From: Myxococcota bacterium
GTDB taxonomy: Bacteria > Myxococcota_A > Bradymonadia > UBA7976 > UBA1532
Direction of reading: 5' to 3'
Assembly (NCBI GenBank): GCA_963169045.1
Contig: CAUJDF010000075.1
Span: 16,689-80,688, forward strand
DNA length: 64,000 nucleotides
The notes beneath the pieces were generated by a model. That model was given only the letters and a program-made list of their open reading frames with translations. It was not told the DNA's origin and did not search any database. Numbering within the stretch: position 1 is the first letter of the stretch; every line of letters starts with the position of its first letter. Positions 29,039 to 32,011 of this stretch are shown piece after piece. The translations under genes and the position numbers were made by a program.

Positions 29039-32011
29039 ATGCGGACCTTCAGACGCGCGTGGGGCCCGGCGCTGGGGTTGTTCGTCGCCGCTTGCGCGGC
29101 CGAGGACGGCGTGTCTTCGGGCGGCGCCGGTGGCGGCGGGGCGGCGCCCGTGCGCGACGCCTCGGTGACACGTCCCGGTGACGCGGGACCGGCCGCGGAC
29201 GCGGCGCCCCCGGTCGTCGACCCCGACGGCGCCCCGGCGGACCCCGACGCGGCGCCCGGCTGCGAGCGAGACGACGCCTGCGCCGAGGGCGAGTGGTGTC
29301 AGGGCGGGGGCTGCGTCGCCCGGCCGGCGGGCGGCTGTCGCGCCGACGCGGACTGCGCGGCGGGCGAGACGTGCGCCGACGACCGCTGCGGGCCGCGCAT
29401 CCTCCAGTGTGTCGAGGACGCGGACTGCGACGCGGGCGAGTCCTGCGCCGACGGCACGTGCGTGGCCGCCGCGCCGCGCTGTGCGGGCGACGCCGACTGC
29501 GCGCCCGGACTCCGCTGCGTCGACGGCGCATGTACGCCGTCGGTGGCGGGCTGCGCGGGCGACGCGGACTGCGGGGCGGGCGAGGCGTGCCGGCAAGGCG
29601 CGTGCGTCCCCGGCTGCATGGAGCCGGCGGCGTGCGGCGAAGGCCTGGTCTGCGCCGGCGGTGCCTGCGTGCCGCCGTGCGCCGGCGACGACGGCTGCCC
29701 GGACGGCGAGGTCTGCCGCGCCGGCCTCTGCGCGCCGTCCTGCGACGCGGGCTGCGGCGACGGCCTGGTCTGCGACGGCGGCGCCTGCGTGCCGCCGTGC
29801 GCCGGCGACGACGGCTGCCCGGACGGCGAGGTCTGCCGCGCCGGCCTCTGCGCGCCCGCCTGCGTCGTCGACGCCGACTGCGGCGCCGGCCTCTGCCGCG
29901 ACGGCGCCTGCGGCCCCGCCGAGTGCGCCGACGACGCCGGATGCGCCGCCGACGCGCGCTGCGAGGCGGGGCGCTGCGTCCCGCGCTGCCCGCTCGGCCC
30001 CGGGCCGTCCTGCGGCGACGACGGCGTGCTCTATGTCTGCGACGTCGACGGCCCCCGCGCGCTCGAGGTCTGCGCCCACGGCTGCGAGGTCGACCGCTGC
30101 CGCCCGCCGCCCTGCGCGGACGACGCCGGCTGCCCCGCCGGCCGGACCTGCGCCGGCGGCCTCTGCAGCCCCGTGCCCGGGAGCGCGTGCGACGCGCCGG
30201 TCCGCCTCGACCACCTCGGCGAGTACCGCGGCTCGACGCTGCGGGCGCCCGCCGCGACCCGCGGGACGTGCGGCGGCGACGCGCCCGAGGCCGCCTTCGT
30301 GCTCGACCCCGCGCTCGGACCCGTGTGCCTCAGCACCGCCGGGTCCGCCTTCGATACGGTGCTCTACCTGCGCGGGACCTGTGACGATCCGGCATCCGAA
30401 TTCTCTTGCAACGACGACCGACCCGAGGTCGCGCCGCAGTCGCAGGTCTTCATCCACCCGTTCGACAGCGCGCCGATCGTCTTCCTCGACGGCGTCGCCG
30501 CCGACGCCGCGGGCGACTACGTCCTGACGGTGAGCGCCGGGGCGTGCGGCGCGCCGCCGCCGGCCTGCCCTGGGGGCGACGGCCTGCACTGCGGCGACGG
30601 CGCCGACCGGCCGCGCGGCACGCTCTTCTGGTGCGCCGCGGGCGCCTGGGCGCCCGTCGAGGTCTGCGTCCACGGCTGCGAGCGCCTCGCGGACGTCGAC
30701 GACCGCTGCCGCGCCGAGCCTCCGCCGGGCTGCGTCGCCGACGCCGACTGCGCCGACGGCGAGCGCTGCCTCGACGGCGCCTGCCAGCCGGGCTGCGCCG
30801 CCGACGCGGAGTGCCCCGCCGGCCACCTGTGCCTCGGCGGGCGCTGCGTCCCGGCCCCGCGCTGCGACGACGACGCGGACTGCATCGCCGGCGAGCGCTG
30901 TCTCGAGGGCGCCTGCGTCGTCGCGCCGCCGTCCTCCTGCGACCGCCCGGCGCCCATCGGCGACTTCGGCGTGTTCCGCGGGACGACCGCCGGCGCGCCG
31001 TCCGCCGTGAGCGGCACCTGCGCCGGCGCCGGCCCCGAGGTCGTCTTCGCCCTCGACCCCGCGCTCGGGCCCGTCTGCCTGAGCACCGCGGGGTCGGTCG
31101 TCGACACGGTCCTGCACGTCCGCAGCGACTGCGGCGCGCCGGCCTCCGAGCTCGCCTGCAACGACGACACGGCCGGCCTCGGCCTCGCCTCGCGCGTCGA
31201 CGTGGCGGCCGGCGCCGGCCTCGCCTACGTCTTCGTCGACAGCTTCGGCGCGCCGGGCGGCGCCTTCTCGCTCGACGTCTCGCCGGGCCCGTGTGGGGCC
31301 GGTCCGGGCGGCGGCTGCGCCGACGCGATCCCGCTGCCCGCGGGCGGGGGCATCATGCAGGGCACCACCGACGGCCGCGCCAACGCGCTCGCAGGACGAT
31401 GCGGCGGCGGGGCGGCGCCCGACATCGTCTACACGCTCCGCCTCGACGAGCGATCCGACGTCGCCGTCGAGGTCGTCGGCTTCGACACGGTGCTGTACCT
31501 CCGCGCGGCCTGCGCCGACGCCGCCACCGAGCTCGGCTGCAACGACGACAGCGATCCGCCCGGCGGCTTCGGATCCGGCCTCTTCGGCACGCTCGAAGCG
31601 GGTCTCTACTTCGTCGTCGTCGACGGGTACGGCGTCAACGGCGGCCCCTTCACGTTGAGCGTCGACGTCGCCGCCGTGGGGGCGGGCTGCGCCGACGGCG
31701 AGCTGCGCCTCGCCGACGGCGTCGACGCGACCGAGGGCCGCGTCGAGGTCTGCCACCAGGGCGAGTGGGGGACGGTGTGCGACGACGGCTGGGACGACGC
31801 CGACGCACGCGCCGTCTGCCGCCAGCTGGGGCTGCCCGATGCCGACGCCGTCGCCCTTTCGTTCGCGGGCTTCGGCCCCGGCGAGGGGGCCATCTGGCTC
31901 GACAACGTCGCCTGCGGCGGCGCCGAGGCGCGCCTCGATCAGTGCCCCCACAACGGCTGGGGCATCCACAACTGCGGTCACTTCGAGGACGCCGGCGTCG
32001 TCTGCCAGTGA
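29039..32011 (+). CDS. large lipoprotein: Cys-rich (C-x3-C-x2-G-x2-C-x2-G-x-C) repeats, three ~120-aa TC..G..PE../[8 protein letters not shown]/CNDD modules, C-terminal SRCR (scavenger receptor cysteine-rich) domain
   Basis: ATG 29039 ([19 protein letters not shown], lipobox). SRCR signature [31 protein letters not shown]...[38 protein letters not shown]. Confidence 0.85.
   Translation: [990 protein letters not shown]
29642..29857. repeat. near-identical ~96-bp segment repeated with a 120-bp period (recent duplication of one Cys-repeat unit)
   Basis: 29642-29737 and 29762-29857 differ at only a handful of positions. Both encode [31 protein letters not shown]. Confidence 0.9.

What the first reader, a model, noticed from the sequence alone, without database searches (positions are those of the whole stretch)
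31700..32008. Metazoan-type SRCR domain at the C-terminus of a bacterial lipoprotein
The last ~103 aa match the scavenger receptor cysteine-rich consensus closely, including the Cys spacing. The sequence is [46 protein letters not shown]...[42 protein letters not shown]. SRCR domains are hallmarks of animal innate-immune and scavenger receptors and are rare in bacteria. Here the domain is fused to bacterial Cys-rich repeats in a predatory, social lineage. This suggests either horizontal acquisition or an ancient ligand-binding module used for prey or surface recognition.
Basis: partly seen in the sequence, partly recalled or inferred. Interest (0 to 1): 0.75.

Follow-up and report, generated by a model that had tools for sequence, protein, structure and literature searches.

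The report
SRCR domain on a myxobacterial lipoprotein
[quoted passage not shown] It is one of a recurring and already auto-annotated set of such domains in Myxococcota, so it is interesting but not unique.

Summary
Window 31700-32008 (+) encodes a full-length SRCR domain: Pfam PF00530 E=3e-32, 111 bits against a cut-off of 26. The AlphaFold2 model has pLDDT 94.8 and TM 0.83-0.92 to DMBT1, CD163, SCARA5 and MARCO.

The domain is the C-terminus of a 990-aa predicted lipoprotein (29039-32011). Upstream lie disulfide-rich DUF7107/Myxo_Cys repeats and three PPC / collagen-binding-like β-sandwiches.

It has the six-Cys group-A pattern. An inferred fourth disulfide (C884-C905) is shared with some Myxococcota and Chlamydomonas SRCRs. 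All residues of the DMBT1 cation and ligand site are kept, with one D→N change.

- The domain is not metazoan-specific. It also occurs in green algae and in giant-virus MAGs.
- It shows no sign of recent transfer. SRCR GC3 is 0.951 against 0.954 for native genes, and codon usage is native.
- At least 15 other Myxococcota proteins carry 1-6 SRCRs in varied architectures, and NCBI already names one of them as SRCR-containing.
- No paper on them was found.

Best reading: a surface-anchored, binding-only protein whose distal SRCR binds anionic ligands through bound Ca2+/Mg2+. The function is untested. I rate it a new member of a known kind, of moderate interest.

The parts
29039..29095 (+). Signal peptide with lipobox ([19 protein letters not shown]). 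Cys19 is the predicted lipidated first residue of the mature protein.
   Evidence: Sequence pattern. The related complete proteins P0126, P0127, P0129, P0131 and P0152 have equivalent lipoboxes.
29096..29257 (+). Gly/Ala/Pro/Asp-rich low-complexity linker (aa 20-73).
   Evidence: Translation.
29258..30214 (+). First block of short disulfide-rich repeats (aa 74-392): DUF7107 / Myxo_Cys_RPT, Dickkopf-N-like. It contains a 120-bp unit repeated 1.9 times at 95% identity at 29633-29864.
   Evidence: Pfam PF23416 59.3 bits (cut-off 24.6), 5 stretches; TIGR04201 25.6 bits (cut-off 25). Tandem repeat.
30215..30571 (+). PPC / collagen-binding-like β-sandwich module 1 (aa 393-511).
   Evidence: jackhmmer with module 3 finds three internal copies.
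30572..30964 (+). Second block of Cys-rich repeats (aa 512-642). It includes the best DUF7107 stretch, aa 586-627.
30965..31318 (+). PPC / collagen-binding-like β-sandwich module 2 (aa 643-760).
31346..31687 (+). PPC / collagen-binding-like β-sandwich module 3 (aa 770-883).
   Evidence: AF2 model pLDDT 91.4. Foldseek top hits are the PPC domain of B. anthracis collagenase 5sv5 (E 1.8e-5, TM 0.60/0.71) and the ColG collagen-binding domain 1nqj. NF038127 gives a partial hit at 24.1 bits, below its cut-off of 29.
31688..31690 (+). Cys884, the inferred partner of Cys905 (31751-31753) in a fourth disulfide that staples the N-terminal extension to strand β2 of the SRCR domain.
   Evidence: In 9 of 9 SRCRs with Cys at the β2 position there is a Cys 4-5 residues before β1, against 5 of 53 without it (Fisher p=1e-7). 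The residue is placed with pLDDT ≥90 in the SRCR model but about 57 in the PPC3 model. Cys parity fits.
31700..32008 (+). SRCR domain (aa 888-990) with the group-A Cys pattern: C914, C927, C959, C969, C979, C989. The acidic cation-binding cluster is D915, D916, D919, D922, D955, N956, N978, E983.
32009..32011 (+). Stop codon. The protein ends one residue after the last SRCR Cys.

Best explanation
The gene at 29039-32011 encodes a lipid-anchored, binding-only extracellular protein with no catalytic domain. From the N-terminus it has a lipoprotein anchor, a flexible linker, a long stalk of small disulfide-knotted repeats interrupted by three PPC / collagen-binding-like β-sandwiches, and a single SRCR domain at the far C-terminal end.

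The SRCR domain is a true homologue of the eukaryotic SRCR fold. Most likely it works as DMBT1, MARCO and CD163 domains do: an acidic surface cluster holds Ca2+/Mg2+ ions, and these ions bridge to anionic groups on a ligand. Candidate ligands are lipopolysaccharide, teichoic acids, exopolysaccharide, sulphated or phosphorylated polymers, mineral surfaces, or an acidic protein patch. The protein would then act as a cell-surface adhesin or receptor towards other cells, prey, matrix or surfaces.

In evolutionary terms the SRCR is a mobile module. It entered or circulates within a subset of Myxococcota long ago, is now fully native in composition, and has been shuffled onto several different secreted scaffolds.

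Shown: domain identity, fold (predicted), Cys pattern, conservation of the cation-site residues, architecture, native composition, and recurrence in Myxococcota.
Inferred: lipidation and surface exposure, the fourth disulfide, cation-dependent binding, the ligand class, and the direction and age of transfer.
For: - Identity: PF00530 111 bits; PDB sequence hits are all SRCR.
- Fold: AF2 pLDDT 94.8, pTM 0.86. Foldseek gives 61 hits at E≤1e-3; the top 50 listed are all SRCR structures. Rmsd is 0.9-1.3 Å and TM up to 0.92 to DMBT1 SRCR8/11, SCARA5, M2BP and CD163.
- Cation and ligand site. In DMBT1 SRCR8, sites 2 and 3 are formed by D1019, D1020, E1086, D1058, D1059 and N1081, and site 1 by D1023 and D1026. 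D1019A or D1020A abolishes binding to hydroxyapatite, heparin and a streptococcal protein (PMC7043408). By motif register these map to D915, D916, E983, D955, N956, N978, D919 and D922 in the window protein. Seven are identical and one is a D→N change.
- Across 22 bacterial SRCRs these positions are D 21/22, D 18/22 (the rest E or N), E 18/22, D 19/22 and N 16/22. This argues for selection on that surface in bacteria.
- Architecture.
- The same architecture occurs in P0129, at only 43% identity in the best local BLASTP alignment (39% of the query) and with no shared neighbours.
- Complete relatives without SRCR end right after the last PPC module, so the SRCR is an add-on module.
- Native composition: SRCR GC3 is 0.951 against 0.954 for 12 window genes. 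The CAI-like index is 0.80, within the native range of 0.67-0.82.
- The neighbours are ordinary chromosomal genes: RND efflux, esterase, EamA, CHASE kinase and PEPCK.
Against: - No experiment of any kind supports this, and no expression data are available.
- Some animal SRCR domains (LOXL2, hepsin, neurotrypsin) have no shown scavenger-type ligand binding, so conserved residues do not prove the function.
- Nothing in the neighbourhood points to predation, adhesion or matrix genes.
- The final location (inner membrane, outer membrane, cell surface or vesicles) cannot be read from the sequence.
- Disulfide-rich proteins need an oxidising export route, which is assumed here.
Confidence: 0.55

Rival explanations
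1. The protein is a structural or matrix component. The SRCR serves as a protein-protein interaction module for assembling or cross-linking an extracellular matrix, as proposed for LOXL2-4 and Mac-2BP, rather than as a receptor for foreign ligands.
For: Relatives built from the same PPC-like and Cys-repeat modules carry lysyl oxidase domains (PF01186 in P0168, P0218, P0219, P0231). The PPC-like modules resemble the collagen-binding domains of clostridial collagenases. Some Myxococcota SRCR proteins also carry uromodulin-type D8C domains, and uromodulin is a polymerising matrix protein (established knowledge).
Against: The window protein has no LOX, D8C or polymerisation domain, and it is lipid-anchored rather than freely secreted. 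Full conservation of the cation cluster fits ligand capture at least as well.
Confidence: 0.2
2. The SRCR acts as a targeting or regulatory module for enzymes, as in animal SRCR-proteases (neurotrypsin, hepsin, TMPRSS). The window protein would be a non-catalytic partner, decoy or inhibitor in such a system.
For: Other Myxococcota SRCRs are fused to an M23 peptidase (P0152 and L002). Relatives of the scaffold carry trypsin-like or S8 protease domains (P0159, P0169, P0192, P0204). The PPC fold is typical of secreted proteases, and the PliG lysozyme inhibitor is among the fold hits.
Against: No catalytic domain is present in this protein, and no protease gene lies next to it. The fold similarity to PliG is generic β-sandwich similarity (TM ~0.6).
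Confidence: 0.1
3. The SRCR segment is a recent acquisition from an animal, or an assembly or contamination chimera.
For: Identity to bird and mammal SRCRs is 55-66%, as high as to bacterial copies.
Against: SRCR GC3 of 0.951 and native codon usage are incompatible with animal DNA. The ORF is continuous with myxobacterial modules on a 167-kb contig. Independent Myxococcota genomes carry homologous SRCRs in bacterial ORFs. The high identity reflects the general conservation of SRCR.
Confidence: 0.02

Closest known systems
DMBT1/SALSA SRCR domains (PDB 6sa5, 6san, 8j8d) and CD163 SRCR domains
   Same: Same fold in the predicted model (TM 0.83-0.92, rmsd ~1 Å, 54-60% identity). The canonical disulfide Cys positions C2-C7, C3-C8 and C5-C6 are the same. 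The acidic cation-binding residues are the same except one D→N.
   Different: Those are group B domains with 8 Cys, including the C1-C4 pair. The window domain lacks C1 and C4 (Thr and Leu instead) and has a different extra pair, C884-C905. In the DMBT1 peptide motif VEVLxxxxW, the Leu is replaced by that Cys (VEVCHQGEW). The host protein is a bacterial lipoprotein, not a mucin-like glycoprotein or macrophage receptor.
Class A scavenger receptors (MSR1/SR-AI, MARCO, SCARA5)
   Same: They share the group-A six-Cys SRCR placed at the extreme C-terminus, far from an N-terminal membrane anchor, at the end of a long stalk. TM is 0.79-0.93 to 6j02, 7dpx, 2oy3 and 7c00. The cation site corresponds to that described in MARCO (PMC7043408).
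   Different: The window protein has no transmembrane helix, no collagenous Gly-X-Y region and no coiled coil. Its anchor is a lipid, and its stalk is made of disulfide-knotted repeats and β-sandwiches. The similarity in layout is analogy, not shared descent of the whole protein.
Myxococcota SRCR proteins in public data (e.g. MCB9540417.1 = P0133; P0129; L001-L004)
   Same: They share the group-A-type SRCR (46-65% identity), the same companion modules (DUF7107 Cys repeats, PPC-like domains, lipoprotein signal) and the same phylum. P0129 has the same overall architecture, including the extra Cys pair.
   Different: There is no close orthologue. The best whole-protein match is 37% identity, and P0129 reaches 43% identity in the best local alignment over 39% of the query. 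Copy number ranges from 1 to 6 and position varies. Fusion partners include M23 peptidase, Kelch, D8C, DUF4215 and a β-helix.
Chlamydomonas SRCR proteins (P0138, C. schloesseri)
   Same: They share the additional N-terminal Cys pair, with Cys at -4 before β1 and Cys in β2.
   Different: Identity is lower (~47%), with longer loops and a eukaryotic multi-domain context. The tree gives no supported grouping with the window domain.

Membership tests
SRCR superfamily (Pfam PF00530) | Significant full-length match to the SRCR profile | tested here: met
   111.3 bits against a cut-off of 26.1, model positions 2-100 of 100.
SRCR superfamily (Pfam PF00530) | Six conserved Cys at the positions forming C2-C7, C3-C8 and C5-C6 | tested here: met
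   C914, C927, C959, C969, C979 and C989 align to the Cys columns of CD163 and DMBT1. They are invariant in alignments A1 and A2. Bond formation itself was not observed.
SRCR superfamily (Pfam PF00530) | Compact α/β SRCR fold | tested here: met
   AF2 pLDDT 94.8. Foldseek TM is 0.83-0.92 with rmsd ~1 Å to solved SRCR domains. This is a predicted structure, not a solved one.
SRCR group A versus group B | Group B has the extra C1-C4 pair (8 Cys); group A lacks it (6 Cys) | tested here: met
   The C1 position is Thr and the C4 position is Leu. All 22 bacterial copies lack both. This gives a group-A Cys pattern plus a non-canonical extra pair. The exon-structure criterion used in animals does not apply.
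Cation-dependent SRCR ligand-binding site (DMBT1/MARCO type) | Acidic cluster equivalent to D1019, D1020, E1086 (site 2) and D1058, D1059, N1081 (site 3) | tested here: met
   D915, D916, E983, D955, N956 and N978; one conservative D→N change. Metal and ligand binding themselves are not testable with these tools.
Class A scavenger receptors | Type II transmembrane anchor, coiled-coil or collagenous trimerising stalk | tested here: not met
   No collagen or TM family was found by Pfam. The N-terminus is a lipoprotein signal. The protein therefore works in a similar layout but is not a member.
Bacterial lipoprotein | Signal peptide ending in a lipobox [LVI][ASTVI][GAS]C | tested here: met
   The lipobox is V-A-A-C19, after a charged n-region and a hydrophobic core. 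This is a pattern match only; no SignalP or LipoP was available.
PPC (pre-peptidase C-terminal) / collagenase collagen-binding domain | Profile match and β-sandwich fold | tested here: inconclusive
   Fold: 5sv5 at E 1.8e-5 with TM 0.60/0.71, and ColG CBD at E 1e-4. Sequence: PF04151 was not hit in this protein though it is hit in relatives. NF038127 scores 24.1 bits, below its cut-off of 29.
Myxococcota Cys-rich repeats (DUF7107 / TIGR04201) | Profile match above the curated cut-off | tested here: met
   PF23416 59.3 bits (cut-off 24.6); TIGR04201 25.6 bits (cut-off 25).

The most novel reading that the evidence does not exclude
SRCR may be one piece of an extracellular toolkit in Myxococcota made of modules usually thought of as belonging to animal matrix and innate immunity. 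Besides SRCR, the pieces seen here are uromodulin-type D8C, lysyl oxidase, collagen-binding-like PPC and Dickkopf/EGF-like knots. Under this reading the SRCR subtype with the extra N-terminal disulfide, shared with green algae, marks an ancient exchange between myxobacteria and early eukaryotes, possibly in the bacterium-to-eukaryote direction. The unresolved tree, the equal identity to bacterial and eukaryotic copies, and the full amelioration do not exclude this.
Probability: 0.1. Interest if true: 0.75.

Novelty: new member of a known kind. Interest (0 to 1): 0.4.

Why it matters
SRCR domains are textbook components of animal scavenger and pattern-recognition receptors. A bacterial copy that keeps the whole cation-dependent ligand site offers a small model for the fold's basic binding chemistry; it has no N-glycosylation requirement, though it does need correct disulfide formation. 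It also raises the question of what a bacterium uses a 'scavenger receptor' head for; prey capture, kin or surface adhesion and matrix building are candidates. The recurrence of SRCR, alongside other animal-like extracellular modules, in uncultured Myxococcota bears on how such modules moved between bacteria and eukaryotes. This single gene does not settle that question, and the existence of bacterial SRCRs is already visible in public annotation.

Tried and rejected
- Phylogeny. An NJ tree (BLOSUM62 distances, 100 bootstraps) of 62 SRCR domains was unresolved. No bacterial-only clade exceeded 65% support, and the window domain had no supported sister. About 100 highly constrained columns cannot decide origin or direction. 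No ML tree software was available.
- Census of bacterial SRCRs.
It found 4 true loci plus one false hit, MnmA (L005). That is a lower bound, not a census.
  - The SRCR-only protein search returned only short fragments, mostly bird exons. It therefore gave no information on bacterial multi-domain proteins.
  - Most of the top 80 loci from the metagenome scan were low-GC eukaryotic exons from coral, sponge or worm samples, or Pro-rich green-alga-like ORFs. Only about 5 were bacterial-like.
- Recent-HGT signal. GC, GC3 and a CAI-like index show none.
- Synteny. The P0129 locus shares no neighbours with the window. The window protein itself could not be looked up.
- Literature. Six searches, of which four looked for a paper on bacterial or myxobacterial SRCR domains, found none in the held library. 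Papers outside it may exist.
- Disulfide geometry. Model coordinates are not exposed, so the C884-C905 bond rests on covariation, pLDDT and Cys parity only.
- Promoter and terminator scan. It was uninformative at 77% GC. The one terminator-like hit lies inside the SRCR coding sequence (31837-31853) and is taken as chance.
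Full report
**1. What is at the coordinates**

- It matches Pfam SRCR (PF00530) end to end, over model positions 2-100 of 100. The score is E=3.1e-32 and 111 bits against a curated cut-off of 26.1.
- Against PDB sequences every hit is an SRCR protein. CD163 domain 3 scores 104 bits and DMBT1 7.6e-33. SCARA5, MSR1, neurotrypsin, LOXL2, M2BP and MARCO follow.
- An AlphaFold2 model of aa 874-990, built on a 38-sequence alignment, has mean pLDDT 94.8 and pTM 0.86.
- Foldseek against the PDB returns 61 matches at E≤1e-3; the top 50 listed are all SRCR structures. 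Rmsd is 0.9-1.3 Å and TM reaches 0.92 to DMBT1 SRCR8/11, SCARA5, M2BP and CD163.

**2. The gene and the protein**

The mechanical ORF list gives a GTG start at 28274. That stretch overlaps a divergently transcribed α/β-hydrolase gene on the minus strand, at 28214-28969 (Pfam Abhydrolase_2).
- The plausible start is ATG 29039, which follows GGGGGAG. It gives a 990-aa product.
- The N-terminus, [19 protein letters not shown], has a charged n-region, a hydrophobic core and the lipobox V-A-A-C.
- The protein has 97 Cys (9.8%). That is the lipobox Cys plus 96, an even number.

Domain order is as follows:

| Residues | Module |
|---|---|
| 1-19 | signal peptide with lipobox |
| 20-73 | low-complexity linker |
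| 74-392 | short disulfide-rich repeats (DUF7107 59 bits; TIGR04201 Myxo_Cys_RPT 25.6 bits; weak Dickkopf_N) |
| 393-511 | β-sandwich module 1 |
| 512-642 | second Cys-repeat block |
| 643-760 | β-sandwich module 2 |
| 770-883 | β-sandwich module 3 |
| 888-990 | SRCR domain |

The stop codon comes one residue after the last SRCR Cys.

A model of the third β-sandwich has pLDDT 91.4. Its best structural matches are the pre-peptidase C-terminal domain of Bacillus anthracis collagenase (5sv5, E 1.8e-5, TM 0.60/0.71) and the Ca2+-dependent collagen-binding domain of ColG (1nqj). By sequence the assignment is weaker. NF038127 scores below its cut-off, and PF04151 is hit only in relatives. There is no catalytic domain.

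**3. Anatomy of the SRCR domain**

The six canonical Cys (C914, C927, C959, C969, C979, C989) align with C2, C3, C5, C6, C7 and C8 of animal domains. They are invariant in my alignments. The group-B pair C1-C4 is absent here, replaced by Thr and Leu. It is also absent in all 22 bacterial copies compared. So this is the group-A pattern.

A seventh Cys sits in strand β2, in the motif VEVCHQGEW (C905). Several lines point to a partner at C884:
- In every one of 9 SRCRs that have this Cys, there is also a Cys 4-5 residues before strand β1. Only 5 of 53 domains without it have such a Cys (Fisher p=1e-7).
- The 9 include four Myxococcota proteins (window, P0129, P0145, P0152/L002), two Chlamydomonas schloesseri domains and two unnamed eukaryote-like sequences.
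- C884 is placed with pLDDT ≥90 in the SRCR model but about 57 in the model of the preceding module.
- The third β-sandwich lacks the Cys that its C-terminal Cys would otherwise pair with.

I infer a fourth disulfide, C884-C905, that staples an N-terminal extension onto the domain.

**4. Ligand-binding residues**

Reichhardt et al. (PMC7043408) showed the following for DMBT1/SALSA SRCR8:
- It binds three cations. Site 1 uses D1023 and D1026 plus backbone. Site 2 uses D1019, D1020 and E1086. Site 3 uses D1020, D1058, D1059 and N1081.
- D1019A or D1020A abolishes Ca2+-dependent binding to hydroxyapatite, heparin and a streptococcal surface protein.
- The site corresponds to the functional sites of MARCO, CD6 and CD163.

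I counted the register through the motifs CDDxWDxxD, LDDV and HNCGHxED. A DMBT1-type sequence recovered in the metagenome scan (L021) served as a check on the counting. The equivalents in the window protein are D915, D916, D919, D922, D955, N956, N978 and E983. Seven are identical and one is a D→N change.

Across 22 bacterial SRCRs these positions are strongly kept: D 21/22, D 18/22 (the rest E or N), E 18/22, D 19/22 and N 16/22. This is the main basis for proposing cation-bridged binding of anionic ligands. It is inference from conserved residues, not a measurement.

**5. Host and context**

- The window is about 77% GC with GC3 of about 0.95.
- Its GTP-PEPCK is 86-88% identical to those of Hyalangium, Stigmatella, Archangium and Myxococcaceae MAGs, and nothing is closer. 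The organism is therefore an unnamed lineage of Myxococcales. Whether it is predatory or social is not known.
- The neighbours are an RND efflux system, an esterase, an EamA transporter, a CHASE hybrid histidine kinase and PEPCK.
- I saw no mobile-element genes and no functional link between these neighbours and the SRCR gene.

**6. Is it foreign?**

- The SRCR segment has GC1/2/3 of 0.786/0.505/0.951. Twelve reference genes from the window give 0.727/0.532/0.954.
- Its CAI-like index is 0.80, inside the native range of 0.67-0.82.
- There is no compositional trace of recent transfer. Contamination is excluded by the continuous ORF on a 167-kb contig and by independent bacterial homologues.
- Identity of the window domain to 24 bacterial copies is 46-65% (median 56%). 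To 18 named eukaryotic copies it is 45-63% (median 57%).
- An NJ tree with bootstraps is unresolved.
- The patchy bacterial distribution against the broad eukaryotic one favours an old eukaryote-to-bacterium transfer followed by shuffling. The direction is not demonstrated.

**7. How common in bacteria?**

The pattern-limited scan of 185,579 species genomes found four loci, all Myxococcota or 'Deltaproteobacteria' MAGs:
- L001 is a lipoprotein with five tandem SRCRs.
- L002 has an M23 peptidase, an SRCR, Cys repeats, a PPC-like module and a C-terminal anchor.
- L003 has three SRCRs in the locus.
- L004 has DUF4215-type repeats, then PPC, SRCR and PPC.

The whole-protein search added several more:
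- P0129 has the same architecture as the window protein but only 43% identity in the best local alignment.
- P0133 has six SRCRs. [quoted passage not shown]
- The others are P0142, P0145, P0147, P0150, P0152, P0185 (Kelch + SRCR) and P0181.

The metagenome scan found at least 590 SRCR-encoding stretches. Among the best 80, about five look bacterial (L013, L034, L007, L022, L041). The rest are low-GC eukaryotic exons or green-alga-like ORFs.

The closest complete relatives of the scaffold that lack SRCR (P0126, P0127, P0131) are lipoproteins that stop right after the last PPC-like module. SRCR is therefore a minority, mobile add-on module within the secreted Cys-rich proteome of some Myxococcota. 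It is rare among bacteria as a whole but recurrent in this phylum and already recognised by automatic annotation. Six literature searches were run; the four aimed at bacterial or myxobacterial SRCRs found no paper describing them.

**8. 'Metazoan-type'?**

The domain is also present in:
- Chlamydomonas (P0138; the literature on algal SRCRs surfaced);
- green-alga-like contigs, where it is flanked by extensin-like Pro-rich runs;
- two IMG/VR contigs, including a giant-virus MAG.

The label should be 'eukaryote-type'.

**9. Mechanism and rivals**

Best-supported reading (confidence about 0.55): a lipid-anchored, binding-only surface protein. A rigid, disulfide-rich stalk presents a distal SRCR head, and that head captures anionic ligands through bound Ca2+/Mg2+. 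The PPC-like modules may add further binding capacity. The layout of N-terminal anchor, stalk and C-terminal SRCR is analogous to class A scavenger receptors, but membership is rejected because there is no TM helix, collagenous region or coiled coil.

Rivals:
- a matrix or protein-protein assembly role (0.2), suggested by LOX- and D8C-bearing relatives;
- a targeting or regulatory partner for secreted enzymes (0.1), suggested by M23- and protease-fused relatives;
- recent animal acquisition or a chimera (0.02), contradicted by composition.

**10. Verdict**

This is a genuine, well-preserved SRCR domain on a myxobacterial lipoprotein. It is a new member of a known kind, with one modestly new structural detail: the extra N-terminal disulfide shared with algal SRCRs. 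Interest is moderate (0.4). It would mildly surprise an SRCR specialist and offers a tractable model. It is not unique, it is already visible in databases, and its function is untested.

Noticed in passing
window 29633-29864: A 120-bp unit is repeated 1.9 times at 95% identity inside the Cys-rich repeat block of the same gene. It encodes ...[32 protein letters not shown]... twice. This looks like a recent internal duplication, so the repeat stalk is still changing length.
   Followed up: partly
P0142 (aa 1105-1186) and P0150 (aa 330-407), Myxococcota-type proteins: Uromodulin-type D8C domains (Pfam PF23283, 64 and 48 bits against a cut-off of 27) sit next to SRCR domains in bacterial proteins. 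This is a second module usually associated with animal proteins (UMOD/GP2).
   Followed up: no
P0168, P0218, P0219, P0231: Relatives that share the PPC-like modules carry lysyl oxidase domains (PF01186). Bacterial LOX is known (PMC4448552), but that paper reports mostly simple architectures.
   Followed up: no
L088 (IMGVR GVMAG-S-3300012953-123, match 2774-3076) and L087 (match 3001-3279): SRCR domains occur on two IMG/VR contigs of ~36% GC. The giant-virus MAG ORF (1095 aa) also ends in collagen-like G-x-y repeats. L087 has SRCR followed by long Pro-rich runs.
   Followed up: partly
L060, L074, L011, L086 (metagenome contigs, 62-72% GC): These ORFs have SRCR domains embedded between extensin-like PPSPPP runs. 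They are probably green-algal cell-wall or surface glycoproteins. High GC alone therefore does not mark an SRCR as bacterial.
   Followed up: partly
window 4689-7619 (-): A second large Cys-rich secreted protein (976 aa) lies here. It shows 38% identity to the Cys-repeat block of the SRCR lipoprotein over 183 aa, a MopE-type motif and a C-terminal hydrophobic segment followed by RRRR. It has no SRCR.
   Followed up: partly
L013 (PVBE012047889.1, 74% GC, match 2416-2721): A bacterial-like 1004-aa ORF has an SRCR (with the VELC extra Cys) inserted near the C-terminal end of a long Gly-rich repetitive region, read by eye as a β-helix-like repeat. This is yet another architecture.
   Followed up: no
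window 31837-31853 (+): The only terminator-like hairpin in 28800-32300 lies inside the SRCR coding sequence. It is taken as a chance match.
   Followed up: no
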